From: a virus
Taxonomy: Duplodnaviria > Heunggongvirae > Uroviricota > Caudoviricetes
DNA: 33,778 nt
Reading direction: 5' to 3' (one strand)
IMG/VR virus record: IMGVR_UViG_2531839450_000016
Coordinates: 1 to 33,778 of that record
Below the pieces are notes generated by a model. That model searched no databases and was not told the origin of the DNA. It saw only the letters and a program-made list of their open reading frames with translations. A program made the translations under genes and the position numbers. Shown one piece after another: positions 5,685 through 29,586 of the stretch (the stretch's first letter is position 1; the number at the start of each line of letters is the position of its first letter).

Positions 5685-6200
5685 TCAGAGGCCGAGGGCG
5701 TTGCGGTGCGCTTCCATCAGGTCTACACCGTCCACAATTTCCACCATGTTGATAAGGTCCACTTCATAGAGCACCTCACCATTGATGGTCAGCTTCGCGT
5801 AGCTGTTGGTACTGGTCACTTTGGTGGTGTTGCTTTCGCCCGTCTTCCACTCGCCGGAATCCACTTCTTTGTGACGTCCACGCACCACAAGCTCCACAGC
5901 CTGCACTTCCCCGGTATCGTCACGCTGGATAGAGCCGGTAAAGCGCAGCTGGATGCCATCCACCGTGGCTTTGCCCATCTGCTTAAACAGCAGCAGTTCA
6001 GTACCACCAATGGAAAATTCTGTATCCAGTGCACTGTCATCCAGTCCCAGATCCACATCCACCACCCCCGGCATTCCGCCACCGCGATACTTCTCATATT
6101 TGCGGGTGAATTTCGGCAGCGTCAGCGACTCAACGATCCCCTGCCAGTTGTTCCCGTCGTTAAACAGGTTCAGGTGTTTTAATTTGCGTGGTAAAGCCAT
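5685..6200 (-). CDS. FII: Tail tube protein gpFII
   Basis: 171-aa ORF immediately downstream of the sheath gene; P2 synteny and size. Confidence 0.9.
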   Translation of the reverse strand: MALPRKLKHLNLFNDGNNWQGIVESLTLPKFTRKYEKYRGGGMPGVVDVDLGLDDSALDTEFSIGGTELLLFKQMGKATVDGIQLRFTGSIQRDDTGEVQAVELVVRGRHKEVDSGEWKTGESNTTKVTSTNSYAKLTINGEVLYEVDLINMVEIVDGVDLMEAHRNALGL

Positions 6201-6209
6201 GTTGTCCCC

Positions 6210-7382
6210 TTACGCGCTGACCTGGCTGGCAAAATTCACCAGGTACTGATCGGTGATGCGCTGGCGCAGCATCAGATTTTCAAGTGGCGGCACTGGCGTG
6301 TAGTCATAGTCGATGGTGAGTTTTCCGGCTTTCAGCGTGTCTTTGTCGTTCACCGACTCATCCAGCCAGCAATCACCACCAATGAGATAGCCTTGACTGA
6401 CCAGGCTGCGCATTTTGGCGCGGATACCTTCGATAATGTCGCGGGCCAGCGACGGGTTAAGCGGTTTATCCACCGCCCACATGTGTGCTTCTGCCATCGT
6501 GTCCATCAGCACCTGCGCCGTGCGGGTGTAGTTTTCGAAGGCAAAGAGCGGGTCATCACTCAGGCAGCGGGAACCCCAGAAGCGGAAACCGTCTTTACGC
6601 ACAAGTGTGGTGACGTCGTTCTGGTTCAGCAGACCTGCATCGGTTGCCGGGTCCTGCAGATCCCAGAACACATCTGCAGAAATTCCGGTGACACCGTTCA
6701 CGCCCACGTTGGACAGGCTTTTGTGCCATCCGGTCTGCTCGTCAATTTTGGCGCGCAGACCAAGCGCACGGGCGGTGGCATATGCCGTTGCTTCGGCATT
6801 CAGCACCGTGTCCCAGCCAGTAAAGTCAGGCCAGATCAGCATCCCTTCGCGCTGGCTGAAGTTTTCACGGTAAGTGATCGCCTCCTGTACCGTCTTGCAG
6901 CCATACGCTGACAGGTAAGCAAATCCACGCAGGCTTTGCGCCACGCTCAGCAACTCAGTAGCTACCGCCTTGGTGTCGTGGCCTGGCACGCCGAGAATGC
7001 GCGGTTTAACGCCGAGCTGAGCCTGTGCAGATAACAGGGCTTTCATACCTGTTTTTTTACCTTCAGCAGTCACTGCGCCGATGATATTGGTCGTGGTTTC
7101 GTCTTCCGTTTCACCCTGCGGCACACGCACAACAACGGTCACGGGTTTTGCCTGGTCAGCGATGGCATCCAGCGAACGAGCCAGCGTGCCTGACTCACCC
7201 GCTTTACCGCTGGCAGTCAGCACATCAGTGATCAGCACGGGTTTATTAAGAGGAAACATTTTTGCATCGGCATCATCGCCCGTGCAGACCATACCCACGA
7301 TGGCGGTGCTCACCGTGGTAATGGATCGGGTGCCTTCGTTGACTTCAACAACGCGCACCCCGTGGTGGTAATCCTGAGCCAT
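6210..7382 (-). CDS. FI: Contractile tail sheath protein gpFI
   Basis: 390-aa ORF, first gene of the FI-FII-E-T-U-D operon; P2 synteny and size. Confidence 0.9.
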
Positions 7383-7524: not shown

Positions 7525-8097
7525 TCAGGGGGATTCATTGCTCTTATTTGCCGGAAATTTTCTATAAATTGTGGAAACACCCACATCAAAAATCAGTGCA
7601 ATACGCTGTCTTGATTCTCCGGCCTCGAGTAAACGTCCAATCTGTGCCCACTGTTCGGTGGTCAACTTAGGACGGCGTCCACCTACTCTGCCTTTAGCAC
7701 GAGCTGCAGCCAGCCCCGCCCTGGTACGTTCAACTATCAGTTCGCGTTCCATTTCAGCCAGGGCCCCCATGACATGAAAAAAGAAACGGCCCATTGGGGT
7801 GCTGGTATCAATACTGTCAGTCAGGCTTCGGAAATTCACGCCACGCTGGCGCAGCTCTTCTATCAGCGTAACGAGATGCCGCATACTGCGCCCCAACCTG
7901 TCCAGCTTCCAGACAACCAGAGTGTCACCTGCCGATAATGTCCTGAGCAGTTTTTTCAGTCCCGGTCTGTCGGACTTAGTGCCACTGATTTTGTCCTCAA
8001 AAATCCGCTCACATCCCGCGCAGTTCAGTGCATTACGTTGCAAATCGGTGTTCTGGTCATTTGTTGACACGCGTACATAGCCAATAAGCATGATCAA
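7525..8097 (-). CDS. Serine DNA invertase (Hin/Gin/Cin/Pin family)
   Basis: 190-aa ORF with the resolvase/invertase catalytic N-terminus (GYVRVSTNDQ...) and C-terminal HTH (SRQRIALIFDVGVSTIYR); lies beside a segment bounded by inverted gix/cix-like sites. Confidence 0.9.
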   Translation of the reverse strand: MIMLIGYVRVSTNDQNTDLQRNALNCAGCERIFEDKISGTKSDRPGLKKLLRTLSAGDTLVVWKLDRLGRSMRHLVTLIEELRQRGVNFRSLTDSIDTSTPMGRFFFHVMGALAEMERELIVERTRAGLAAARAKGRVGGRRPKLTTEQWAQIGRLLEAGESRQRIALIFDVGVSTIYRKFPANKSNESP

Positions 8098-8146
8098 TCC
8101 CCTGAATAAAAACCGGGGATGATGCCAGTTAGCTGTTACCTCTGCA

Positions 8147-8172
8147 TTTTCTTAAACGTTGGTTTGGGAGAA
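8147..8172. repeat. Invertase crossover site 1 (cix/gix-like 26-mer)
   Basis: TTTTCTTAAACGTTGGTTTGGGAGAA; its reverse complement shares the 14-nt TTCTCCCAAACCAA with the site at 9677-9702; fits the TTnTnnnAAACC-nn-GGTTTnnnAnAA pattern of Din-family sites. Confidence 0.7.
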
Positions 8173-8526
8173 GCGGCAAAACGAAATGTGGGTAACGAGC
8201 AAAACCAAATTCCGGATATGGCGGCGTTTGCCAGTTCACTTTCATCAACGGGTTTTCAAAAACTCCCTTCAGGTCTGATTATTCAGTGGGGTATAGTCAG
8301 TGGAGCATCAAACTATACGGTGACTTACCCGGTAACATTCCCAAATCGTTCACTTGCGCTGTTGGCTGTACCACATACAACGTCGGTGGCGGGTATATCT
8401 GCAATGGGCATAGCGAACTGTTCTGATATCAGCAAATCACAGTTCTATATAATTGTTGGCGGTATATCTCAGGGAGAAATTGTCAAATATGAAAGGTCCT
8501 GTTTTTGGGTAGCAATCGGTGTATAG
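8161..8526 (+). CDS. Silent alternative tail-fibre C-terminal cassette (would fuse to H after inversion)
   Basis: Open frame begins at the crossover site with GLGE, the same junction residues as in H (..AYLGLGELS..); shares LIIQWG with the expressed H C-terminus; has no constant N-terminal part in this orientation. Confidence 0.6.
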   Translation, partial: GLGEAAKRNVGNEQNQIPDMAAFASSLSSTGFQKLPSGLIIQWGIVSGASNYTVTYPVTFPNRSLALLAVPHTTSVAGISAMGIANCSDISKSQFYIIVGGISQGEIVKYERSCFWVAIGV

Positions 8527-8534
8527 GTATATCT

Positions 8535-8930
8535 ATGATTTATTTCTCAAAATCGACTAATGGTTTTTTCTTCGATGGTATAAACAGTGACATGCCTGCT
8601 GACATTGTTGAGATATGTACAGACTTATACAATGAATTAATTGCCGGACAGCAGGAAGGGGGTAAATTAATTACGTCAGATGAAAATGGTTTACCGGTAC
8701 TAAAATCCCCGGCGATTGATTATGTCGCACGTGCGGAAAATCAGCGAATGCAGTTACTTGCTCATGCCGATAATGTCACAGCTGACTGGCGAGTGGAATT
8801 AATGCTTGGTGATATTAGCAGTACAGATAAAGAAAAACTATCCGCCTGGATGGACTACAAAAAAGAAGTAAAAGCCGTCGACACTTCGACGGCTCCTGAG
8901 ATTAGCTGGCCTGAGTTACCGGAGGTGTAG
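8535..8930 (+). CDS. Alternative tail-fibre assembly chaperone
   Basis: ORF starting MIYFSKSTNGFFFDG..., ending ...VDTSTAPEISWPELPEV, the typical C-terminus of tail-fibre assembly proteins; follows the silent cassette. Confidence 0.7.
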   Translation: MIYFSKSTNGFFFDGINSDMPADIVEICTDLYNELIAGQQEGGKLITSDENGLPVLKSPAIDYVARAENQRMQLLAHADNVTADWRVELMLGDISSTDKEKLSAWMDYKKEVKAVDTSTAPEISWPELPEV

Positions 8931-19484: not shown

Positions 19485-21251
19485 ATGAACACCACACTGA
19501 CACCCGCAGATCTCGATCCCCGTCGGCAGGCCATGCTGCTGTACTTTCAGGGATACCGCGTCGCCCGCATTGCTGAAATGCTGGGCGAGAAAGTTGCAAC
19601 CGTTCACAGCTGGAAAAAACGCGACAAGTGGGGTGACTATGGGCCGCTGGATCAGATGCAGCTCACCACCGCCGCACGCTACTGCCAGCTCATTATGAAG
19701 GAGCACAAAGAAGGGAAAGATTTCAAAGAAATTGACCTGCTGGCACGCCAGTCTGAGCGCCACGCGCGGATCGGCAAGTTTAACAATGGCGGCAACGAAG
19801 CCGACTTAAACCCTAACGTTGCCAACCGCAACAAAGGCCCACGTCGTCAGCCGGAAAAGAATGTTTTCACCGATGAACAGATTGAGAAACTGGAAGAAAT
19901 CTTCCATTCCTCTATGTTCAACTACCAGCGTCACTGGTGGGAAGCCGGAAAAACCAACCGCATCCGCAACCTGCTGAAGTCACGCCAGATCGGCGCGACC
20001 TTTTACTTTGCCCGTGAAGCCCTGATTGACGCCCTGCTGACCGGGCGTAACCAGATTTTCCTTTCTGCCAGCAAGGCTCAGGCCCACGTCTTTAAACAGT
20101 ACATCATCGACTTTGCCAAAGAAGTGGAGGTGGAGCTGAAAGGCGATCCGATGGTGCTTCCTAACGGGGCCACGCTTTACTTCCTCGGCACCAATGCCCG
20201 CACGGCCCAGAGTTACCACGGCAACCTGTATCTGGATGAATATTTCTGGATACCGAAATTCCAGGAGCTGCGTAAAGTGGCTTCCGGTATGGCTATTCAC
20301 AAAAAATGGCGACAAACCTATTTTTCCACGCCATCCAGTCTGACACACAGTGCTTATCCGTTCTGGTCCGGTGCGCTGTTCAACCGTGGGCGCAACAAAG
20401 CCGATAAGGTGGACATCGACCTGTCCCACAGCAATCTGGCCCCCGGCCTGCTGTGCGCAGACGGGCAATACCGCCAGATAGTCACCGTGGAAGATGCGGT
20501 GCGCGGCGGCTGTAACCTGTTCGACCTTGACCAGTTGCGCATGGAGTACAGCCCGGACGAATACCAGAACCTGCTGATGTGCGAGTTTGTGGACGATCTC
20601 GCGTCCGTGTTCCCGCTCAGCGAGCTGCAGGCAGGCATGGTGGACAGCTGGGAAGTCTGGACCGACTTTCATGCACTGGCCCTGCGCCCGTTTGGCTGGC
20701 GCGAAGTGTGGATCGGTTATGACCCGGCAAAAGGTACGCAGAACGGCGACAGTGCCGGATGCGTGGTGGTGGCGCCGCCAGCCGTGCCGGGTGGTAAGTT
20801 CCGCATTCTTGAGCGTCACCAGTGGCGCGGGATGGACTTCCGCGCCCAGGCTGACGCCATCAAAAAACTGACCGAACAGTATAACGTGACCTATATCGGC
20901 ATCGACTCGACCGGCGTCGGTCACGGGGTTTACGAGAACGTGAAAGCGTTTTTTCCTGCCGTCAGGGAGTTTGTCTACAACCCCAACGTTAAAAACGCCC
21001 TGGTACTCAAGGCCTACGACATTATCAGCCACCGCCGTCTGGAGTTTGACGCCGGGCACACCGACATTGCGCAGTCATTTATGGCAATCCGTCGCGCTAC
21101 CACTGCCAGTGGCAACCGCCCGACCTATGAAGCCAGCCGCAGCGAAGAAGCCAGCCATGCCGATCTGGCCTGGGCAACAATGCACGCACTGTTTAACGAA
21201 CCGCTGCAGGGCGAGTCCGCCAATACCAGCAATATTGTGGAGATTTTTTGA
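19485..21251 (+). CDS. P: Terminase ATPase (large) subunit gpP
   Basis: 588-aa ORF, divergent from O and followed by Q with a 4-nt overlap; P2 synteny and size. Confidence 0.9.
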   Translation: MNTTLTPADLDPRRQAMLLYFQGYRVARIAEMLGEKVATVHSWKKRDKWGDYGPLDQMQLTTAARYCQLIMKEHKEGKDFKEIDLLARQSERHARIGKFNNGGNEADLNPNVANRNKGPRRQPEKNVFTDEQIEKLEEIFHSSMFNYQRHWWEAGKTNRIRNLLKSRQIGATFYFAREALIDALLTGRNQIFLSASKAQAHVFKQYIIDFAKEVEVELKGDPMVLPNGATLYFLGTNARTAQSYHGNLYLDEYFWIPKFQELRKVASGMAIHKKWRQTYFSTPSSLTHSAYPFWSGALFNRGRNKADKVDIDLSHSNLAPGLLCADGQYRQIVTVEDAVRGGCNLFDLDQLRMEYSPDEYQNLLMCEFVDDLASVFPLSELQAGMVDSWEVWTDFHALALRPFGWREVWIGYDPAKGTQNGDSAGCVVVAPPAVPGGKFRILERHQWRGMDFRAQADAIKKLTEQYNVTYIGIDSTGVGHGVYENVKAFFPAVREFVYNPNVKNALVLKAYDIISHRRLEFDAGHTDIAQSFMAIRRATTASGNRPTYEASRSEEASHADLAWATMHALFNEPLQGESANTSNIVEIF

Positions 21252-22276
21252 TGGGAAAGAGTAAGAAGAACCGCGCTGCGTCGACGAAACAGATCCAGCA
21301 TAAAAGCCAGACTTCAGCCGAAGCATTCAGCTTCGGTGATCCCGTTCCTGTTCTGGACCGCCGCGAACTGCTGGACTATGTGGAATGCGTACAGATGGAT
21401 CGTTGGTATGAGCCGCCTGTGAGTTTCGACGGACTGGCGCGAACCTTCCGCGCCGCCGTGCATCACAGCTCACCGATTGCAGTGAAGTGCAACATTCTGA
21501 CCAGCACCTACATCCCTCACCCGCTGCTCAGCCAGCAGGCTTTTTCGCGTTTTGTGCAGGACTATCTGGTTTTTGGTAACGCCTACCTGGAGAAACGCAC
21601 GAACCGCTTCGGTGAAGTTATCGCCCTTGAGCCTGCACTGGCAAAATACACCCGCCGCGGGTTAGACCTGGATACCTACTGGTTTGTGCAATACGGTATG
21701 ACAACCCAGCCGTATCAGTTCACGAAAGGCAGCATTTTTCATCTGATGGAACCGGACATTAACCAGGAGATCTACGGCCTGCCCGGTTATCTTTCTGCCA
21801 TTCCGTCAGCTCTGCTCAACGAGTCCGCCACGCTGTTCCGCCGCAAGTATTACATTAACGGCAGTCATGCAGGATTCATCATGTACATGACCGATGCTGC
21901 GCAGAACCAGGAGGATGTGAACAACCTCCGCAATGCGATGAAAAGCGCCAAAGGTCCTGGTAACTTCCGTAACCTGTTTATGTACTCGCCTAACGGTAAA
22001 AAGGACGGGCTTCAGATTATCCCGTTGTCAGAAGTGGCGGCGAAGGATGAGTTCCTGAATATCAAGAACGTGAGCCGGGACGACATGATGGCGGCGCATC
22101 GCGTGCCGCCTCAGATGATGGGGATTATGCCGAATAATGTCGGGGGATTTGGGGATGTGGAGAAGGCCGCAAATGTATTTGTGCGTAATGAGTTAATTCC
22201 GCTTCAAAGAATTATACAAGGATTTAACGGATTTATTGGTGACGACATCATAAACTTCGAAAAATATAAATTATAG
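21248..22276 (+). CDS. Q: Portal protein gpQ
   Basis: 342-aa ORF downstream of P; P2 synteny and size. Confidence 0.9.
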   Translation: MMGKSKKNRAASTKQIQHKSQTSAEAFSFGDPVPVLDRRELLDYVECVQMDRWYEPPVSFDGLARTFRAAVHHSSPIAVKCNILTSTYIPHPLLSQQAFSRFVQDYLVFGNAYLEKRTNRFGEVIALEPALAKYTRRGLDLDTYWFVQYGMTTQPYQFTKGSIFHLMEPDINQEIYGLPGYLSAIPSALLNESATLFRRKYYINGSHAGFIMYMTDAAQNQEDVNNLRNAMKSAKGPGNFRNLFMYSPNGKKDGLQIIPLSEVAAKDEFLNIKNVSRDDMMAAHRVPPQMMGIMPNNVGGFGDVEKAANVFVRNELIPLQRIIQGFNGFIGDDIINFEKYKL

Positions 22277-22280
22277 AAAA

Positions 22281-22300
22281 TAGGCCTGTAATCAGGCCTA
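22281..22300. terminator. Hairpin between the convergent Q gene and the SIR2-like gene (possible bidirectional terminator)
   Basis: TAGGCCTG-taat-CAGGCCTA, located 5 nt after the Q stop and 6 nt before the SIR2-like stop. Confidence 0.45.
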
Positions 22301-22305
22301 GTATA

Positions 22306-23385
22306 CTAACATTGTTTACATAAATCAGAAAAACTACCACCGAAATAATACAGTGCAGATTTATCATTTAGTTCTTTAAAAACTTCACACGCACGCTGGT
22401 GTATCTCAATAGCACTAGATTTATTTCGCCCAATAATAACAGTCTCTTTTTCAGTACTATCGCCATCCAGAAAAGTCTTCAAAAGAAAATTAATAATAAA
22501 GTCTTCCTTTGGGAAAGAATAACCTATAAAGATCAACAGATCTGCTTGTCTCAACTGGGTAGAGGATTTCACAAAAGCTGTCTTAAAGTATTTATCCCCA
22601 TAGTCTTGTTCATTTGAAGGCAAGATAATATTTGGAACAACTTTTGCGTTTAATAATGAATCATAATCTATTTTAAAACCATCCCTTGCAGCAACAACCT
22701 CAAATCCTCCATTAAGCTTATACAAACCTATACCTTTAGGCTGAGGACACACTAATATATTATTATGATGCACAGGAAAACCCCGATTAACTGAACGTTC
22801 AGGGAATGCATGATGTAGCACTTTATCAATAACTATATCGTAGTTTGTTGTGACTACATCCAGTGCTGAAGCTTCCTGTAAACTCTTAAAGAAAGAAATA
22901 ATATTCCTTTTATTCTGCCCAAATTTTGCAGTTTGACTTAGCTTTAAATCATTTGCCGGTATTTTTTTTGCAAACTTATTTTTTACATATAGTTTTACTT
23001 GTGCCTCAAACAACTCAAGCGTATGCCTATCAAGATACGACGGCAATAAACTTGGATATCGCTTATAAACATCCAATGCATATTTAAAACTCTTGAAAAC
23101 ATTAGCTTTGTCATCTAAACCTGCATTAGCATCCGCCCATTTAAATTTAAGACTGTCGAACAAAGAAAAAAAACCATACTCATCAATATTTTCTAATGCT
23201 TCGTCTTCAGAGATGGAAAAGACTTCATTACTCAATGGGTATTTGTCATCCCAGGCTTTAGAAAATCCTGCTCCGAGAAAAACACATACTCTTCGCTCTC
23301 TTATTTTTGATTTCAATGTGGCGAAGGATGTAATTTCTAAATTATTAGGTGTCAAAATATCACCATCATAAGCAAAGCTAGTCAT
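22306..23385 (-). CDS. SIR2-like domain protein (putative NAD-dependent effector), second gene of an accessory cassette
   Basis: 359-aa ORF carrying, in order, VCVFLGAGFSKAW, VVTTNYD, YKLNGG and LLIFIGYSFPKED, which match the motif order of SIR2-like defence domains as I recall them; strongly AT-rich; starts 13 nt after the ATPase stop. Confidence 0.6.
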   Translation of the reverse strand: MTSFAYDGDILTPNNLEITSFATLKSKIRERRVCVFLGAGFSKAWDDKYPLSNEVFSISEDEALENIDEYGFFSLFDSLKFKWADANAGLDDKANVFKSFKYALDVYKRYPSLLPSYLDRHTLELFEAQVKLYVKNKFAKKIPANDLKLSQTAKFGQNKRNIISFFKSLQEASALDVVTTNYDIVIDKVLHHAFPERSVNRGFPVHHNNILVCPQPKGIGLYKLNGGFEVVAARDGFKIDYDSLLNAKVVPNIILPSNEQDYGDKYFKTAFVKSSTQLRQADLLIFIGYSFPKEDFIINFLLKTFLDGDSTEKETVIIGRNKSSAIEIHQRACEVFKELNDKSALYYFGGSFSDLCKQC

Positions 23386-23398
23386 GTTTTTCTCACGC

Positions 23399-24628
23399 TT
23401 AGTTTTTTATATCAAGAAAAGCTGGAACTAATCCAAATTCGCCACGTAAATATTTGGCAGACACTTTAGCATCTTTCCTTACAGAAAATACCGTAGCATT
23501 AGTTATTATCGACGCTTTAGATGAATCCTTGACTATAATATTAAGCTCATCTCTTCTAAACACATCATCTAATAAAGGAATATTATGTGTAGACATAATA
23601 AACTGCACACCATTTTTACGGCAGGTTTTATCAAATATTTTTTTGATTAGTGCACTTGCCAAAGAATAGTGAATAGATGAATCTATTTCATCCACATAAA
23701 GTGTAAAATCATATTCACTAGCCCAAATCAATATTGCTAAAAATGTTAAAACATTTAGTGTGCCTTGGGAAAAAAATTCATCCCTACGGTCAGGGCCTAT
23801 TCTAGTAAAATCACCATCATCATTTTTTATGAGATAAACAAATTTATACTCATTATCTTCGCCAAATCTTACAAATTCAACTTTATCTATATGCAGCGGC
23901 GACTGAATAACCATTTCATTATAGGTATTTAAAATTCTTTGACCACTCTCATTTAATTTTTCATTTCCTTCCTCACCTGATAACTGGCGCTTAAGTTGTC
24001 CTTCAACAAATTTAAGACTTGGATTTTTGAATTTTTCAGAGTAATAAGGCAATTGTTTTAATGCCCAGCGTTGGGTTTCAACAAGAGCATCAATTTCTAA
24101 AGATTTTGCAAAAGTTACAACAGCTCCACTTTCTCTTAAGACAGGATTAATCAACGACTCGTATTTTTTTAAGTCGGGCTTTTTGAAAACCAACCCATTT
24201 TCATTGCGAATAAAAATACATTGTTCCCTTGCATTTTTTCTTATCGGTCTAATGTATAAATACTCATCTACAATAACTTCATTTAAAACTGACACACCAT
24301 AACGGACGAAGTTTTTTTGCTCTTCATCAATCAGTATCGCTTCATAGGAAGTAGGTTTGTTACGACATTCCTTATTTAGAAGGAAAGGCATATGCAATTT
24401 GTGTAATGTGTCACTATGAATTGAATTTGCAAATTCAGTAATAGCATTTATTAATTGTGTTTTACCAACACCATTTCCGCCTATTAATGCGGCAAATCTG
24501 TTTACTCTTAAACCATTCGCTAATGTCACGATATGTTCAGGATGCTCATCCCCAATTGAGGAAGCAAAACTAAGAACCTGTCTTTCGCGAAAGCTCTTGT
24601 AATTTTCTAAACTGAATGCAACTAGCAT
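23399..24628 (-). CDS. ABC-type (AAA_15/AAA_21-like) ATPase, first gene of an accessory cassette
   Basis: 409-aa ORF; N-terminal MLVAFSLENYKSF followed by Walker A GGNGVGKT at about residue 50; C-terminal LYVDEIDSSIH (Walker B/D-loop) and STHN (H-loop-like); GAGGA ribosome-binding site 6 nt before the ATG; AT-rich. Confidence 0.7.
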   Translation of the reverse strand: MLVAFSLENYKSFRERQVLSFASSIGDEHPEHIVTLANGLRVNRFAALIGGNGVGKTQLINAITEFANSIHSDTLHKLHMPFLLNKECRNKPTSYEAILIDEEQKNFVRYGVSVLNEVIVDEYLYIRPIRKNAREQCIFIRNENGLVFKKPDLKKYESLINPVLRESGAVVTFAKSLEIDALVETQRWALKQLPYYSEKFKNPSLKFVEGQLKRQLSGEEGNEKLNESGQRILNTYNEMVIQSPLHIDKVEFVRFGEDNEYKFVYLIKNDDGDFTRIGPDRRDEFFSQGTLNVLTFLAILIWASEYDFTLYVDEIDSSIHYSLASALIKKIFDKTCRKNGVQFIMSTHNIPLLDDVFRRDELNIIVKDSSKASIITNATVFSVRKDAKVSAKYLRGEFGLVPAFLDIKN

Positions 24629-24748
24629 CTGAAGTCCTCATTTTTGCGTAAAAAACGCATTTTTGACTATTTCGGTAATGTAATCCAGTGCTAACGCAAA
24701 AGCAACTTAACATTTTATGTTATATTATTAATTATGTATCCGCGCGCG

Positions 24749-24767
24749 CTCGTATCCCCGCCACGCC
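24749..24767 (-). other. Candidate cos site (19-nt cohesive end)
   Basis: Minus-strand GGCGTGGCGGGGATACGAG followed by CGCGCGC resembles the P2 cohesive end as I recall it (GGCGAGGCGGGGAAAGCAC then TGCGCGC); located in the Q-to-A interval where cos is expected. Confidence 0.5.
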
Positions 24768-24816
24768 TGCCCGCTTTATGTAGTGGTTTTCATGCACCTG
24801 CATGATCTACGCAAAA

Positions 24817-24836
24817 GCCCGCCAGAACTGGCGGGC
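24817..24836 (-). terminator. Rho-independent terminator downstream of the lipoprotein gene
   Basis: Stem GCCCGCCA / TGGCGGGC (8 bp, 4-nt loop) followed by TTTT on the minus strand. Confidence 0.45.
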
Positions 24837-24940
24837 CTTAACACAAAAGATCCTCAAACGATCATGCGATCTCATGCAGCATAGACATGCGCGTTTATGC
24901 AGAATGTGCAAAATCGTAACATACTCAGCAAGCGTGAAAC

Positions 24941-25618
24941 CTAGAACGTGACAGCCTTGTCAAAGCCAGAAATAATTGTATAGGAAATAGACGAGTTATC
25001 AGCCTTGTTCACTTTGAACTTGGCACCTTTGTAAGCGATAACATCACTTCCCTTAGAATCTACAGAAAAATCTGTTGTAAACGCTGCACGAGCCATATCG
25101 TTTGCAAACTCACGATAGGTAAACTTCATTACACCGTCTGCATTTCCATTGTATTCGATAGTCTTAACCAATGAGTTACTCACTCGACACAGCCCATCAG
25201 GAACACGCTTGATAGAAATTTCTGAGGCTGTATAAGAAGTGCCGTTTGGTGGTGATATCTCATTTTTTGCAGCATCGTAACTTACATAATCAACATAGGT
25301 GCCGATTTGTCCATAGATATTTTTTAGCGCAACAGCTTGAGGATTATGATGATTGCGGTAAATTCCATTCCCTTCGCTGCAATATGTACCTGCAGAGATA
25401 GAAGATAGCGCACCATTAGCCGCACCAAGCTCTAGTACGTCCGTTTTATATCCAGTAGCAGATGTTATGATGGGGTCGCCCATGTAGGCTGTAGCACTTT
25501 GCCCAATAGCAGGCTTCACCACTTCAATAGCTGTGATATTTCGGTTAGAAGCATGAGGCACGCAACCAGTTAGGATTACAGCAAGAGATATAGGTAACGC
25601 AATATGGTTAATTTTCAT
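24941..25618 (-). CDS. Lipoprotein of unknown function (accessory gene next to cos)
   Basis: Likely start at the internal Met MKINHIALPISLAVILTGC (signal peptide with lipobox LTGC); AT-rich; occupies the position of tin/old in P2. Confidence 0.6.
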   Translation of the reverse strand: MKINHIALPISLAVILTGCVPHASNRNITAIEVVKPAIGQSATAYMGDPIITSATGYKTDVLELGAANGALSSISAGTYCSEGNGIYRNHHNPQAVALKNIYGQIGTYVDYVSYDAAKNEISPPNGTSYTASEISIKRVPDGLCRVSNSLVKTIEYNGNADGVMKFTYREFANDMARAAFTTDFSVDSKGSDVIAYKGAKFKVNKADNSSISYTIISGFDKAVTF

Positions 25619-25731
25619 TTTTAGCCTATTATTCTTTTCTTGACAAAAAACGAGGCGATATCTGATTGACATCACCTCTCACTCATATGTAACCCTTTTT
25701 AAGTATTAAAAACAAGCATCTATTGACAAAA

Positions 25732-25965
25732 TCAATGCAGCCAGCTGTCGTCTTCCCACACCTTCTGCATAATTTTCATCACTTGTTTTCTTTCTTCATC
25801 CAGTTGCAGTCCGGTCAGTTCCACACCGTTAGAGCTACCTTTACGGATACGAATTACCGTTTTGGGATATAGGGGGCGCAGATTGCGGTAAAGCTCGGAT
25901 TCAAGGGCGTCCAGGGTAGACTGGCTAATCTTCTGCTCTTTATCGATCATTATTTCAATGCGCAT
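25732..25965 (-). CDS. DinI-family protein
   Basis: From the internal Met: MRIEIMIDKEQKISQSTLDALESELYRNL...KIMQKVWEDDSWLH, which resembles E. coli DinI (MRIEVTIAK...ALAGEL...ETWESADDW); strong GAGGTGA ribosome-binding site. Confidence 0.8.
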   Translation of the reverse strand: MRIEIMIDKEQKISQSTLDALESELYRNLRPLYPKTVIRIRKGSSNGVELTGLQLDEERKQVMKIMQKVWEDDSWLH

Positions 25966-25975
25966 AAAAGTCACC

Positions 25976-26164
25976 TCAACTGATGACATCCATTGAGCGG
26001 TTGTATTCGTGGGTTCTGATTTTTGCCATGAGTTCATCTGTCAGTTCAGAAACCCACTGCAGGGCCAGCCCCTTCTCTTCATCACTACACTCACTAGCCG
26101 CTACAAGCTTAAGAAAAAAATCAATGCGCTGGAGCTTCAAAGACTCCAAAAAATAGTCCTGCAT
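25976..26164 (-). CDS. Small hypothetical protein (62 aa) upstream of the DinI-like gene
   Basis: ORF from MQDYFLESLK... with an AGGAGG ribosome-binding site; immediately downstream of a LexA-box-like sequence. Confidence 0.5.
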   Translation of the reverse strand: MQDYFLESLKLQRIDFFLKLVAASECSDEEKGLALQWVSELTDELMAKIRTHEYNRSMDVIS

Positions 26165-26207
26165 TTTTCCTCCTATGACACCACAAGCAATACTGTATAC
26201 ATAACCA

Positions 26208-26223
26208 CTGTTTATATTTACAG
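26208..26223. promoter_or_regulatory. LexA (SOS) box
   Basis: CTGT-ttatattt-ACAG (CTGT-N8-ACAG, AT-rich spacer) inside cactgtttatatttacagta, about 45 bp upstream of the small ORF / DinI-like pair. Confidence 0.55.
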
Positions 26224-26317
26224 TATATAATAACCTTACTGATGTAAAACGTTTTTTTACGTTCATCAGCATGATATGCCTGGTATTATTAAGAGCACGA
26301 ATTGTTAACCCGCGTAA

Positions 26318-28732
26318 TTAATACAGGTTCCGCCACTTATCATCTTCCTGCAAACGCTGGTTCCGATAGAAGATACGCAGGCCTGCTCCTGACGGAATAC
26401 TGCCTCCGCGAAGGAGTAAATCGACCTCTTTCTCGCTGCCATCAAATCCTCTGGACTTCAGCTCATACACGAGCTGCAGTCGCTGATGGTCTGTAATTCG
26501 CTGTTTGTAGTCTTTACGCCGTTTCGGTTTCACCAGGCGTAACCTTGCTGCCAGTTCCCGGCACTCTTTTTTGCTCATACTGTGCAGGTAATCGTGCAAC
26601 TCCTTGTCATCCATGCGGGTAATATCCGTTCTGGTGTCCCCATCAGCTGATTTATCTTTCTCCTGTTGGTTCAAATTTTCAGCAAGGGGACAGTTATTGC
26701 CACGAGTCCAAGGGGCGCAAGCGCCCTGGTCGGCTACCGCCTCCTGAACGTCAACGGCCTTACGAACCATTTTCCACTTCACTGCATGAGTGCAGATCTT
26801 GCCCTCTGAAATGGGTGACCAGATGCCATAAATACGAATACCGTGATCGCCATAGGCGGTCGGCTCTTCGTTGATTTCATAAGCGGTTCTGATGAGGTGA
26901 TATTTACGGGGAACCAGTACGCCGCCCTGCTTCATGATGTAGGAGGCAAAACAACCAGCATCAGCAGCAGCCAGGATGGCATCAAGGCGCGGGTTATCCA
27001 GTACCGGCGCACCTGCTTTTTTGTCCCCCTGTTGCCTTGCCGCCTGACCAGCCAGCAATCGCAGTTCACGGTAAGCCTGACGCCCCGGAATGCCAAAGAA
27101 GCGGAATTGCTGAACACGATGCAGAGACGCCCAGGCATTAACGTATTCAGCGTTATCACGCAGGGATTTACCCGTTTCCTTGCTGATCTCACCAGCCAGA
27201 CCACGCCCGTCAATGTTCTTACTGATGTATTTCGCGATGTAGCTTGTTGGCGTACCTTTGCGCGGGTTTATCAGCTCAGACTTAAAGCGTGGTCCCGTGT
27301 TATTACCCAGCTCCTCGCGGTCTTCACGAATGGCAAACTTACGCAACAAAGCAGTAATGGCTCGGCGATCTTTTTTGCGCATAAAACACAACAGGTGCCA
27401 GTGAACTGTACCGTCATGATGCGGCTCAGCCACCCGCACGCCATACCAGCGCAATCCGGCTTTGTGCATCGCTTTACGAAATGCAGCAAACATGCCGACC
27501 AGATAATCACTGCTTTGTCTTACCGTCGCGTTTGTCCAGGTCGGGTTTGGTCTGCCGTTATTTAGCGTGGAATGGAAACGTGACGGACAGGTGATGGTGT
27601 AGAAAACGGCGCAGTCACCGCGCATTTCCGCGATAAGCTCCAGACCTTTAACACAGGCCATCATCTCATTGCGGCGATGCGCAGGGTTGCTGCTGCTGGC
27701 GTTTACCACATCCTCCATGTCCAGCGTGTCGCCGTCTTCGTTCACCAGTTCATGAGAACGGAAAAACTCCAGCGACTTACGGCGCTGCTCACGTTTATGC
27801 AACACGGCTTCATAGCTGACATAGGGAGATACTTTTTTGCTGACAAGGCAGACAGCACGCAACTGCTCTTCCCGCCATTCGCAACGCATCTTCCATAATT
27901 TCCGATACCACCAGTCGGCGCATAACATACGCGCCAGCGAACCCGGAATGAGTTCATAAGGCACGGGTTTACGGCGGTTTCTTTTCCGACGGAGTTGCTC
28001 AAACGCAGGCGGGATAACATCCAGACGCAGGGTTTCCGCTGCCACCTTTTCCCATGTCTTGCGGATTTCTTCTGGCGTAACATCATCGGTGGCATACAAA
28101 TCGCCACAAGCTGTATCAAGGCACATGCTCATATGCGCAGCTACCAAGGTGGACAGGCGTTTCACCTGATCCTGACTCATTTCAGGCAGGATCAGCAGGC
28201 CGTCCAGCCCTTCATGGCTTGCCATAAAGCGAAAAGAAGTGGATAGCTGACTGTCGCGTACATGCTCCAGTCGTTCCAAGCATGGCTTAATCGTCTCACG
28301 CAAATAGCGGGAATAAGCCTTTGGCCTGCCCAGGCTGCTGAAGTATTTAATACGTTGCATCAGCGGCTTGCTGATATGGGAAGGCTGGGCGTTGACGTCC
28401 GCCAGAATGGCCATGTCTGGATTAAAACGCTGCTGCTCATGCGCCAGCTTTGCCCGGCTAATTAGCTTATCCTGCTCCATTTCGCGTTGGACAGGATCAC
28501 GGGATTCATTAAAGAAATAACGCTCCCAGACCTGATCACTCAGTGCCTCGCGGCGTAGTTGTTCCTGCTCGTTATCGGCAGCGTACAGAGTGATCAGGTT
28601 TGAAAGCGCAGAAACCGGCGCAACTTCCGCCGGGTCCAGATAAGGGTTAATGGCCTTTTTCGGGCTGTTCCATGAGAATGCTGCGGCGACCTCGTTAAAG
28701 CCGCTGCAGTTGTTCATATCAGCATGGCTCAT
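26318..28732 (-). CDS. A: Replication initiation endonuclease gpA (rolling-circle initiator)
   Basis: Large ORF with a His-rich motif ([14 protein letters not shown]) consistent with a rolling-circle Rep metal site; probable start ATG at 28730-28732, overlapping the Dam stop (ATGA). Confidence 0.9.
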
Positions 28733-29586
28733 GCACGCACTCCGTACACGACGGAACAATCCACGCCACGCGAAGGATCAAATCCTACCCAGCAGCGCGG
28801 CCCGGAAACAGCGATGATTTCTGTTGCTGATTTACTCTCACCAGCTGCTACGCCGATGCTGCGTTTTACCTTGATATAGTGGTGAGTAAAATTGCGATAC
28901 AGCGAACGGATCAGGGATGTGTCACTGTTAGAAACAATGACCGGATGTCCTTCTGATGACCGATGTTCAAGAACGGATGCCAGGTGATACTGGTCATCTT
29001 CAGTAAAGCCGTCAGCGTGATAGCCGGAAAACGTACCGTCATAAGGCGGATCGCAATACACCACATCCCCCGCCTTCAACATCGCCAGCGTTTCATCAAA
29101 GCTGGCGCAGATAAACGTTGCTCGCTGGGCTTTTTCTGCAAAAGCGCGAATTTCTTTTTCAGGGAAATACGGATTTTTATAATTACCGTAGGGAATGTTG
29201 AAATGCCCGCTCTTGTTATAGCGACATAACCCACGGTAACCGTGACGATTGAGATACAGGAAATATACCGCTTTCATGAAATCAGTAATTTCAGTTGAGT
29301 AATTAAACTCCTGCCTTATGTTGTAATAAGCCACCTCCCTGTTTGCGATCTCAAATAAAACTTTGGCGCGAGATATAAACAATTCACAATCAGCGGCAAC
29401 CTTTTTATAGAGGTTGATTAAATCAGGATTAATATCCGCAACCAGATAGCAGGGATAATCCGTCTCCATCATCACAGCACAGGAACCCGCGAAAGGTTCA
29501 ACTAGTCGCGGACCAGCAGGAAGATGTTTTTTCAGTTCGGACATTACGGCGGTTTTATTTCCCGCCCATTTCAGGATGGTGCTCAT
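28729..29586 (-). CDS. dam: DNA adenine methyltransferase (Dam family)
   Basis: From the internal Met: [11 protein letters not shown]... (the N-terminal motif typical of Dam) and DPPY catalytic motif (VYCDPPYDG); start ATG overlaps the stop of the TraR-like frame (ATGA). Confidence 0.85.

What the first reader, a model, noticed from the sequence alone, without database searches (positions are those of the whole stretch)
24941..25618. Lipoprotein gene in the tin/old position next to cos
A minus-strand ORF with an N-terminal signal peptide and lipobox (ILTGC) and no recognisable enzymatic motif occupies the interval between cos and the DinI-like genes, where P2 carries tin/old. It is AT-rich and followed by its own terminator hairpin (24817-24836). 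Prophage lipoproteins in accessory loci are frequently superinfection-exclusion factors.
Basis: partly seen in the sequence, partly recalled or inferred. Interest (0 to 1): 0.5.

Follow-up and report, generated by a model that had tools for sequence, protein, structure and literature searches.

The report
Orphan prophage lipoprotein beside cos
A real, well-conserved gene for an outer-membrane-anchored lipoprotein of unknown function (the Fels-2 STM2726 protein) sits as a swappable cargo cassette next to the packaging site of a P2-like prophage. Its relatives occurred only on phages and other mobile elements in every locus examined, so a role in blocking rival phages is plausible but untested.

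Summary
Window 24941-25618 (-) encodes a 225-aa protein with a canonical lipoprotein signal peptide (lipobox LTGC, Cys19). It lies between a DinI/TumB-like gene and cos (24750-24767), has 41.7% GC against about 53-54% for the backbone, and is under strong purifying selection (dN/dS 0.07-0.09).

All 15 independent contexts examined are mobile elements, often near defence genes and never with a conserved partner. The gene is a discrete cassette (24891-25733), present in 50 of about 1280 E. coli genomes that carry the flanking backbone.

One correction: the hairpin at 24817-24836 is cos-proximal backbone, not the gene's own terminator.

There is no homology to Cor, Llp, Bor, TraT or Tin beyond the signal peptide. 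The sequence does not track the phage's tail-fibre tip.

Best reading (about 0.4): a stand-alone, envelope-level exclusion or defence factor aimed at other phages. This rests on context only.

The parts
24941..25618 (-). Lipoprotein CDS, 225 aa; Fels-2 STM2726 orthologue; member of PHROG 1353
   Evidence: dN/dS 0.07-0.09.
25562..25618 (-). Signal peptide (residues 1-18) plus the lipid-modified Cys19; lipobox LTGC; +2 residue is Val
   Evidence: G18 and C19 invariant in 21 homologues; no Asp at +2 in 229 family members.
24891..25733 (-). Swappable cassette: the gene plus 115 bp upstream and 50 bp downstream. In E. coli E9 it is replaced by an unrelated DUF8087 gene on the other strand.
   Evidence: blastn breakpoints; E9 annotation; DUF8087 translation.
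25652..25678 (-). 11-bp hairpin followed by GUUUUUUG, between the DinI-like stop and the lipoprotein ATG. Terminator-like or attenuator-like; lies inside the cassette.
   Evidence: Retained with one-sided changes in Fels-2 and in the 85%-identity clade; absent in the 80% clade.
25702..25729 (-). Weak sigma-70-like match TTGTCA-16-AATACT (9 of 12) at the upstream edge of the cassette. Consensus match only.
   Evidence: Only partly conserved.
24817..24836 (-). GC-rich hairpin plus U-run downstream of the gene. Part of the conserved cos-proximal backbone.
24750..24767 (-). cos core (cohesive-end sequence) of the P2-like prophage
   Evidence: cos lies 174-177 bp beyond the CDS end in the window and in nearly all of the 57 IMG/VR copies that are at least 80% identical.
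25732..25965 (-). DinI/TumB-like gene immediately upstream, same strand
   Evidence: Pfam DinI E 6.6e-23; phrog_189; Fels-2 annotation.
25976..26164 (-). 62-aa ORF (phrog_698), first gene of the small operon upstream
26208..26223 (.). LexA-box-like palindrome TACTGTAAATATAAACAGTG upstream of the 62-aa ORF. Suggests SOS control of the transcript that runs toward the lipoprotein gene.
   Evidence: It is the only zero-mismatch CTGT-N8-ACAG in the window; sequence. The analogy to phage 186 p95/tum is from my own knowledge.
22306..24628 (-). Separate cargo cassette on the other side of cos: an AAA_21/AbiLi-like ATPase plus a SIR2 protein. Context, not part of the lipoprotein unit.

Best explanation
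The gene is a stand-alone accessory ('moron') cassette of a Fels-2-type P2-like prophage.

Inferred from sequence rules: the product is exported by Sec, lipid-modified at Cys19 by Lgt/LspA/Lnt, and sorted by Lol to the outer membrane because it has no Asp at +2. A linker of about 10 residues then tethers a compact all-beta domain of about 22 kDa. Two cysteines (C80 and C144) are conserved in the close clade, which suggests a disulfide.

Proposed function (inferred only): it needs no partner protein and acts at the envelope on a component conserved across Enterobacteriaceae. The effect would be to stop other phages, not the carrier phage's own type, at adsorption or at DNA passage through the outer membrane and periplasm. 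That would benefit whichever mobile element carries it.

Expression in this phage (inferred): the gene sits downstream of a probably LexA-controlled small operon (62-aa ORF plus DinI/TumB-like gene), behind a hairpin. Expression would then be low in the lysogen and higher on SOS induction.
For: Lipoprotein features are present and conserved. The gene is real and constrained.

Accessory status:
- It is in 50 of 5426 complete E. coli genomes, whereas the flanking DinI/gpA block is in 1281.
- It is exchanged precisely for an unrelated cassette in E. coli E9.
- It lies in the published P2 defence hotspot.

The family is carried on mobile elements in all 15 independent contexts examined:
- The P2-like DinI-cos slot, with four different cargoes across cos (this window; Fels-2; E. 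coli NCTC11121 and HS; Klebsiella 4LV2017). 57 of 80 IMG/VR loci show the same slot.
- Lambdoid prophages.
- Siphophage tail modules next to the tape-measure gene in Acinetobacter, Moraxella and Providencia.
- Plasmids of 95-128 kb that are most likely phage-plasmids, by my own inference.
- Integrative islands, a mobilisable element and an ICE.

Recognisable defence genes lie nearby in many of these: OLD nuclease, AbiC, Shedu SduA, reverse transcriptases and AbiL-like/SIR2.

No partner gene is conserved.

The lipoprotein stays 95-96% identical while the tail-fibre tips differ between the window, Fels-2 and a Klebsiella phage. This favours a conserved target that is not the phage's own receptor.
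Against: There is no functional evidence at all. There is no homology or fold similarity to any known exclusion or defence protein.

Cargo regions of mobile elements also carry many non-defence genes, so the association is weak.

The gene is co-directional with the early/SOS operon and sits behind a terminator-like hairpin. No convincing promoter of its own was found. That is not the classic picture of a gene expressed constitutively in the lysogen.

P2-like phages adsorb to LPS (my own knowledge), which a periplasm-facing lipoprotein could hardly mask.

I could not decide whether the domain faces the periplasm, faces the surface, or is embedded in the membrane.
Confidence: 0.4

Rival explanations
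1. It is a lysogenic-conversion factor that changes a host envelope property unrelated to phages, such as resistance to serum, antimicrobial peptides or detergents, adhesion, or biofilm formation, in the way lambda Bor or plasmid TraT do.
For: It is a predicted outer-membrane lipoprotein carried as cargo on prophages, plasmids, an ICE and a mobilisable element. It is a stand-alone gene with no partner. Copies 95-96% identical are widespread in the clinically relevant genera Salmonella, Klebsiella and E. coli.
Against: There is no homology to Bor or TraT beyond the signal peptide. The family also occurs in Geobacter, Idiomarina, a Planctomycetes MAG and other environmental bacteria, where host-specific virulence traits make little sense. 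A generic envelope-fitness role is not excluded.
Confidence: 0.22
2. It serves the carrier phage's own lytic cycle. It would be made after SOS induction and would inactivate or mask a receptor or entry route, so that the induced cell is not superinfected and progeny are not lost on cell debris. This is T5 Llp-like logic.
For: The gene is on the same strand as, and downstream of, an operon preceded by a LexA-box-like site. The predicted operon STM2726-STM2727-STM2728 appears among operons called differentially expressed in mutagen-treated Salmonella, although that call needed only one gene of the three to change (PMC2225428). In siphophages the homologue sits inside the tail module.
Against: Homologues also occur on elements with no virion genes: integrative islands, a mobilisable element and an ICE. 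The sequence does not co-vary with the tail-fibre tip. The window phage also has an invertible alternative fibre tip. A terminator-like hairpin separates the gene from the SOS operon. Only about 4% of related E. coli prophages carry it.
Confidence: 0.13
3. It is an orphan periplasmic immunity protein against an interbacterial toxin, such as a T6SS or CDI effector or a bacteriocin that acts in the periplasm, carried by mobile elements as acquired protection.
For: Periplasmic or outer-membrane location. A small beta-rich domain with no enzymatic motif. Island and mobile-element cargo. One island also carries a Tlde1-domain gene about 7 kb away.
Against: No cognate toxin gene lies next to it in any of the contexts examined. 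The strongest association is with temperate phages, not with T6SS or CDI loci.
Confidence: 0.08
4. It is a structural, morphogenetic or lysis component (for example spanin-like) of the phage.
For: It is phage-borne, and in some siphophages it sits within the tail gene block.
Against: It is absent from about 96% of related E. coli prophages. It can be replaced by an unrelated cytoplasmic protein. It is present on non-phage elements. It has a lipoprotein signal, no C-terminal membrane anchor, and lies outside the lysis cassette. The P2-type LysB/LysC spanin genes are annotated elsewhere in the related Fels-2 genome.
Confidence: 0.02

Closest known systems
Fels-2 STM2726 (YP_001718750) and its orthologues in Salmonella RE2010, Klebsiella P2-like phages and E. 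coli HS / ATCC 8739 prophages; PHROG 1353
   Same: 95-96% protein identity and the same slot between the DinI/TumB-like gene and cos. All 42 sampled family members match phrog_1353.
   Different: Nothing of substance differs. All are annotated as hypothetical, and no function has been published that I could find. The cargo on the other side of cos differs in every lineage.
Cor (phi80/N15/HK022) and Llp (T5), outer-membrane lipoproteins that block FhuA
   Same: Phage-encoded, lipobox-bearing and single-gene. In siphophages the family also sits among tail genes.
   Different: Only the 19-20-residue signal peptide aligns. The mature part here is 206 aa, against about 58-62 aa in Cor and Llp. In this phage the gene is not linked to the receptor-binding protein gene and does not co-vary with it. 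No target is known.
Lambda Bor and plasmid TraT, outer-membrane lipoproteins for serum resistance and surface exclusion
   Same: Lipoprotein cargo of mobile elements. TraT is similar in size.
   Different: No homology: with Bor only the signal peptide aligns, and the TraT comparison gives probability 9%. There are no Pfam Lambda_Bor or TraT hits.
P2 tin and old, the cargo of the same locus in phage P2
   Same: They occupy the same genomic interval, between the replication gene A and cos. They are non-essential accessory cargo of the defence hotspot.
   Different: Tin and Old have no lipoprotein signal and act inside the cell (my own knowledge). They are transcribed from the cos side on the opposite strand. 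Tin is unrelated in sequence. Old was not compared directly; the lipoprotein has no Pfam domain.

Membership tests
Bacterial lipoproteins (Lgt/LspA substrates) | N-terminal signal peptide with a positively charged n-region and a hydrophobic h-region | tested here: met
   MK-INHIALPISLAVIL. Kyte-Doolittle mean is 2.75 over residues 6-16.
Bacterial lipoproteins (Lgt/LspA substrates) | Lipobox [LVI][ASTVI][GAS]C, with the Cys conserved among homologues | tested here: met
   LTGC with Cys19. G18 and C19 are invariant in 21 homologues. 229 of 265 family members have a lipobox.
Bacterial lipoproteins (Lgt/LspA substrates) | Outer-membrane sorting (no Lol-avoidance Asp at +2) | tested here: met
   +2 is Val. 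None of 229 family members has Asp at +2. This is a rule-based prediction only.
Bacterial lipoproteins (Lgt/LspA substrates) | Actual acylation, globomycin sensitivity and membrane localisation | not testable with these tools
   Needs palmitate labelling, globomycin treatment and membrane fractionation.
PHROG 1353 (phage protein family of unknown function) | Full-length match to the family HMM | tested here: met
   E 1.7e-101, residues 1-223 against profile positions 1-230 of 230. All 42 diverse relatives match the same PHROG.
Cargo of the P2-like cos-proximal defence hotspot (Rousset et al. 2022) | Located between replication gene gpA and portal gene gpQ, next to cos | tested here: met
   gpA 26318-28759, the gene 24941-25618, cos 24750-24767, Q 21248-22276. 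Hotspot definition from PMC9122126.
Cargo of the P2-like cos-proximal defence hotspot (Rousset et al. 2022) | Variable presence among otherwise related phages | tested here: met
   50 genomes carry the gene against 1281 with the flanking block. Cassette swap with exact breakpoints 24891 and 25733.
Cargo of the P2-like cos-proximal defence hotspot (Rousset et al. 2022) | Confers resistance to phage infection | not testable with these tools
   No PADLOC model matches. Needs plaque assays.
Cor / Llp receptor-blocking lipoproteins | Sequence homology of the mature protein | tested here: not met
   hhalign aligns only the 19-20-residue signal peptide.
Cor / Llp receptor-blocking lipoproteins | Genetic linkage to, or co-variation with, the phage's own receptor-binding protein | tested here: not met
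   The gene is about 14 kb from the tail-fibre gene. The fibre tips differ while the lipoprotein stays 95-96% identical.
Cor / Llp receptor-blocking lipoproteins | Binds and inactivates FhuA | not testable with these tools
   Needs adsorption or ferrichrome-uptake assays, or pull-downs.
Lambda Bor / TraT | Homology to Pfam Lambda_Bor or TraT | tested here: not met
   No Pfam hit at E up to 1. hhalign: Bor aligns over the signal peptide only; TraT gives probability 9%.
P2 Tin | Sequence homology | tested here: not met
   hhalign probability 0.3%.
Any solved or catalogued fold | Structural similarity of the AlphaFold2 model (pLDDT 80.8) to PDB or BFVD entries | tested here: not met

The most novel reading that the evidence does not exclude
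PHROG 1353 is an unrecognised and very widespread family of outer-membrane-tethered beta proteins, with at least 2400 clusters at 50% identity from Enterobacterales to Acinetobacter, Vibrio and Geobacter. It has no detectable structural relative. In this reading it forms a new class of single-gene, envelope-level anti-phage or anti-MGE exclusion modules that move between phages, plasmids, ICEs and islands. In Fels-2-type phages it would be coupled to the SOS/Tum induction module.
Probability: 0.3. Interest if true: 0.6.

Novelty: new variant of a known kind. Interest (0 to 1): 0.38.

Why it matters
Most systematic work on phage defence has catalogued cytoplasmic systems. Envelope-level exclusion proteins are few and come from a handful of families (Cor/Llp, TraT, SieA, Imm/Sp, Ltp).

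This family is carried by thousands of prophages, plasmids and islands, including common prophages of Salmonella, Klebsiella pneumoniae and E. coli. If it blocks phage entry, it would affect host-range prediction and phage therapy in those species. It would also add a new fold to the exclusion repertoire.

The test is cheap: one 678-bp gene with no partner. If the gene turns out to have no phage phenotype, it is still a clean example of a conserved moron of unknown purpose.

Tried and rejected
- Annotation libraries: Pfam, NCBIfam and PADLOC scans of the protein and of 42 relatives gave nothing consistent. The only NCBIfam line was a polysaccharide lyase at E 0.049, far below its cut-off.
- Genome collection: the GTDB genome scan with the family alignments failed or found nothing.
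- Neighbour paralogues: I checked whether neighbours were paralogues or partners. They are unrelated small lipoproteins or membrane proteins.
- phi80 gp23: this 224-aa protein next to cor is unrelated.
- Longer family members: proteins of 314-381 aa are either mis-called starts or carry an internal insertion, not informative domain fusions.
- C-terminal Phe: I considered whether it marks an integral beta-barrel signal or a DegS-activating tail. It is conserved only in the Enterobacterales subclade, 42 of 265 members, so I dropped the idea.
- Own promoter: none found close to the ATG. The TTGTCA-18-AAAAAT match ends inside the start codon and was rejected. The 25702-25729 match is weak.
- Literature: searches by locus tag, accession, PHROG id and topic found no characterisation.

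Full report
**1. What is there**

The minus strand of window 24941-25675 carries an open reading frame. The conserved start is the ATG at 25618. It has an AGG six bases upstream, and every homologue begins at the equivalent Met. The product is 225 aa, beginning MKINHIALPISLAVILTGC.

It has the three parts of a lipoprotein signal peptide:
- a charged n-region (Lys2);
- a hydrophobic core (Kyte-Doolittle mean 2.75 over residues 6-16);
- a lipobox, L-T-G-C, with Cys19.

G18 and C19 are invariant in an alignment of 21 homologues that are 35-85% identical. Of 265 full-length family members collected later, 229 have a lipobox in the first 45 residues. None has Asp at +2, the Lol-avoidance residue. 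A few members have an ordinary SPase-I signal instead. The domain therefore works outside the cytoplasm, and in this protein it is predicted to be tethered to the outer membrane. The mature protein is 206 aa, about 22 kDa, pI 7.0.

The gene is real and under selection. dN/dS is 0.087 against Fels-2 and 0.067 against a 96%-identical IMG/VR copy (L024), at dS of about 0.23.

**2. Where it is**

The window is a P2-like (Fels-2-type) prophage.
- Terminase P (19485-21251) and portal Q (21248-22276) read toward cos.
- The replication endonuclease gpA is at 26318-28759.
- Related E. coli, Salmonella and Klebsiella records annotate the same genes.
- The cos core GGCGTGGCGGGGATACGA is at 24750-24767 on the minus strand. 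It is the only match in the window and aligns with P2 cosR.

On the minus strand the order is: gpA, a 62-aa ORF (25976-26164, phrog_698), a DinI/TumB-like gene (25732-25965, Pfam DinI E 6.6e-23), the lipoprotein gene, and cos.

P2 carries tin and old in the same A-to-cos interval, but transcribed from the cos side on the other strand.

**3. A correction**

The hairpin at 24817-24836 exists: a GC-rich stem followed by UUUU. It is not the gene's own terminator.

blastn against E. coli E9 shows homology at 98.9% from 22000 to 24890. E9 has the same cos-Q cargo but lacks this gene. Homology breaks at 24891 and resumes at 25734. In between, E9 has an unrelated acidic 111-aa DUF8087 gene on the opposite strand.

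The lipoprotein unit is therefore a discrete cassette, 24891-25733, and the hairpin belongs to the conserved cos-proximal backbone (24742-24890).

Other phages share 24742-26500 and diverge to the left of cos. So cos is flanked by two independently exchangeable slots.

**4. Upstream region and expression**

The cassette brings 115 bp upstream of the ATG. This stretch contains two features:
- A weak promoter-like match, TTGTCA-16-AATACT, at 25702-25729.
- An 11-bp hairpin followed by GUUUUUUG, at 25652-25678. Fels-2 and an 85%-identity clade keep the hairpin, with one-sided (G-U/G-C) changes. An 80% clade lacks it.

Further upstream lies the window's only perfect CTGT-N8-ACAG palindrome, TACTGTAAATATAAACAGTG at 26208-26223. 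It sits in front of the 62-aa ORF and the DinI/TumB-like gene. From my own knowledge this resembles the LexA-controlled p95/tum module of phage 186.

A microarray paper lists STM2726-STM2727-STM2728 as a predicted operon called differentially expressed after a mutagen. The method needed only one of the three genes to change (PMC2225428), so this is weak evidence.

My inference is low expression in the lysogen and more on SOS induction. This is unverified. I found no convincing promoter of the gene's own.

**5. What family it belongs to**

The protein is 95.6% identical to Fels-2 STM2726, 95.1% to Salmonella phage RE2010, and 96.4% to 24 Klebsiella phage records. The same sequence occurs in E. 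coli isolates. All of these are annotated 'hypothetical protein' or 'lipoprotein'.

It matches PHROG 1353 (unknown function) over its full length at E 1.7e-101. All 42 diverse relatives that I sampled match the same PHROG and no Pfam family.

A profile search of 1.84 billion cluster representatives found 2467 relatives at E of 1e-3 or better and 1277 at 1e-10 or better. Named relatives come from Acinetobacter, Providencia, Kluyvera, Cronobacter, Vibrio, Idiomarina, Geobacter and a Planctomycetes MAG.

There is no PDB sequence relative.

**6. Genomic company**

Every one of the 15 independent contexts I inspected is a mobile element.

| Context | Notable neighbours |
|---|---|
| P2-like slot between DinI and cos: this window; Fels-2; E. 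coli NCTC11121 and HS; Klebsiella 4LV2017. Also 57 of 80 IMG/VR loci, nearly all with cos 174-177 bp beyond the CDS end. | Cargo across cos differs each time: AAA+SIR2, a 565-aa protein, a STAS-containing trio, a 463-aa protein, a reverse transcriptase pair |
| Citrobacter lambdoid prophage | OLD nuclease and terminase |
| Idiomarina lambdoid prophage | Between recT/exo and the repressor |
| Acinetobacter (two species), Moraxella and Providencia siphophages | Inside the tail module beside the tape-measure gene, among toxin-antitoxin and antirepressor morons |
| Non-mobilisable IncFIB plasmids of 95-128 kb in E. coli, Shigella, Citrobacter and Klebsiella, most likely phage-plasmids (my inference) | Between a DnaB-like helicase gene and an AAA ATPase gene |
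| Klebsiella island with serine recombinases | AbiC-like gene |
| Pantoea island | OLD nuclease and an nSTAND3 protein |
| Brenneria mobilisable element | MobA_MobL relaxase |
| Geobacter island, next to the integrase | Reverse transcriptase and PRTase |
| ICE in an uncultured gammaproteobacterium | Shedu (SduA) |

No neighbour recurs, so the protein works alone.

In complete E. coli genomes the gene is in 50 of 5426, while the flanking DinI/gpA block is in 1281. Rousset et al. define exactly this gpA-gpQ, cos-adjacent interval as a hotspot of anti-phage systems in P2-like phages (PMC9122126). Neither that paper nor a 2026 follow-up mentions a lipoprotein.

**7. Comparison with known exclusion lipoproteins**

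Profile comparison of the family with known proteins gave:

| Protein | Result |
|---|---|
| phi80 Cor | only the signal peptide aligns (20 columns) |
| T5 Llp | only the signal peptide aligns (19 columns) |
| Lambda Bor | only the signal peptide aligns (20 columns) |
| TraT | probability 9% |
| P2 Tin | probability 0.3% |
| phi80 gp23 | nothing |

It is therefore not a member of any of those families.

It also does not follow the Cor/Llp logic of masking the phage's own receptor. The tail-fibre receptor-binding tips differ between the window, Fels-2 and Klebsiella 4LV2017, while the lipoprotein stays 95-96% identical. In addition, the window phage has an invertase-switched alternative fibre tip.

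**8. Most likely mechanism**

Shown:
- it is a conserved, exported lipoprotein, predicted to sit in the outer membrane;
- it is a single-gene cassette;
- it is optional cargo in a defence hotspot;
- the family was on a mobile element in every context examined.

Inferred: it acts at the envelope on a component conserved among hosts, to keep out other phages at adsorption or DNA transit, to the benefit of whatever element carries it. I give this about 0.4.

Rivals:
- An envelope-fitness or lysogenic-conversion trait unrelated to phages (0.22).
- An Llp-like role in the carrier's own lytic cycle after SOS induction (0.13). The SOS-module position supports this. Presence on virion-less elements and the lack of co-variation with the fibre tip argue against it.
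- An orphan immunity protein against periplasm-acting toxins (0.08).
- A structural or lysis role (0.02), which the distribution effectively excludes.

The remainder is 'something else'.

**9. Novelty and verdict**

The gene itself is already in the databases as Fels-2 STM2726, and its family is catalogued as a PHROG of unknown function. The locus type (P2 hotspot) is also known.

What would be new is the function. If the protein is an exclusion factor, it would be a new, structurally unrelated variant of the known kind 'phage-borne lipoprotein exclusion factor', and it would be very widespread.

The finding is sound but ordinary in kind. Its interest lies in how large and how consistently MGE-borne the orphan family is, and in how cheaply it can be tested. 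Interest 0.38.

Noticed in passing
window 22306-24628 (-): A two-gene cassette with 33% GC lies between cos and the portal gene. It pairs a 409-aa AAA_21 ATPase, whose best PADLOC hit is AbiLi (E 2e-51), with a 359-aa SIR2-family protein. This looks like a defence system in which SIR2 takes the place of the usual AbiLii partner. The same pair is in E. coli E9, but none of the 80 IMG/VR loci carrying the lipoprotein has it.
   Followed up: partly
window 26208-26223, with 25976-26164 and 25732-25965 (-): A perfect LexA-box-like palindrome (TACTGTAAATATAAACAGTG) sits upstream of a 62-aa ORF (phrog_698) and a DinI/TumB-like gene. This looks like the SOS-controlled Tum antirepressor module of phage 186. 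The lipoprotein gene lies downstream on the same strand.
   Followed up: partly
window 25652-25678 (-): A terminator-like hairpin with a U-run sits only 33 nt upstream of the lipoprotein start codon, inside the cassette. It is kept with one-sided changes in an 85%-identity clade. Whether it is a terminator for the DinI operon or a leader attenuator is unresolved.
   Followed up: partly
window 7525-8930: A Cin/Gin-type DNA invertase (7525-8097, -) lies next to an alternative tail-fibre C-terminal segment (8119-8526, +) and a second tail-fibre assembly gene (8505-8930, +). This is an invertible host-range switch like those of Mu, P1 and Fels-2.
   Followed up: no
L001 (E. coli E9) 5692-6477: In the same slot between DinI and cos, E9 carries an acidic 111-aa DUF8087 protein on the opposite strand instead of the lipoprotein. 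So this small slot is itself a site of cassette exchange, separate from the cos-Q slot.
   Followed up: partly
protein database cluster holding the window protein: The 90%-identity cluster that contains the window, Fels-2 and Klebsiella proteins has a 308-aa branched-chain amino-acid transaminase as its representative. This looks like a clustering artefact. It explains why the first homology search listed no full-length relatives above 90% identity.
   Followed up: no
L015, L108, L107, L110, L106 (Acinetobacter, Providencia, Moraxella prophages): In siphophages of three genera the homologue lies inside the tail module, directly beside the tape-measure gene in Acinetobacter and Providencia. It sits within a block of morons (toxin-antitoxin pairs, Arc/AntA antirepressors). 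This is a recurrent insertion site that may deserve its own look.
   Followed up: partly
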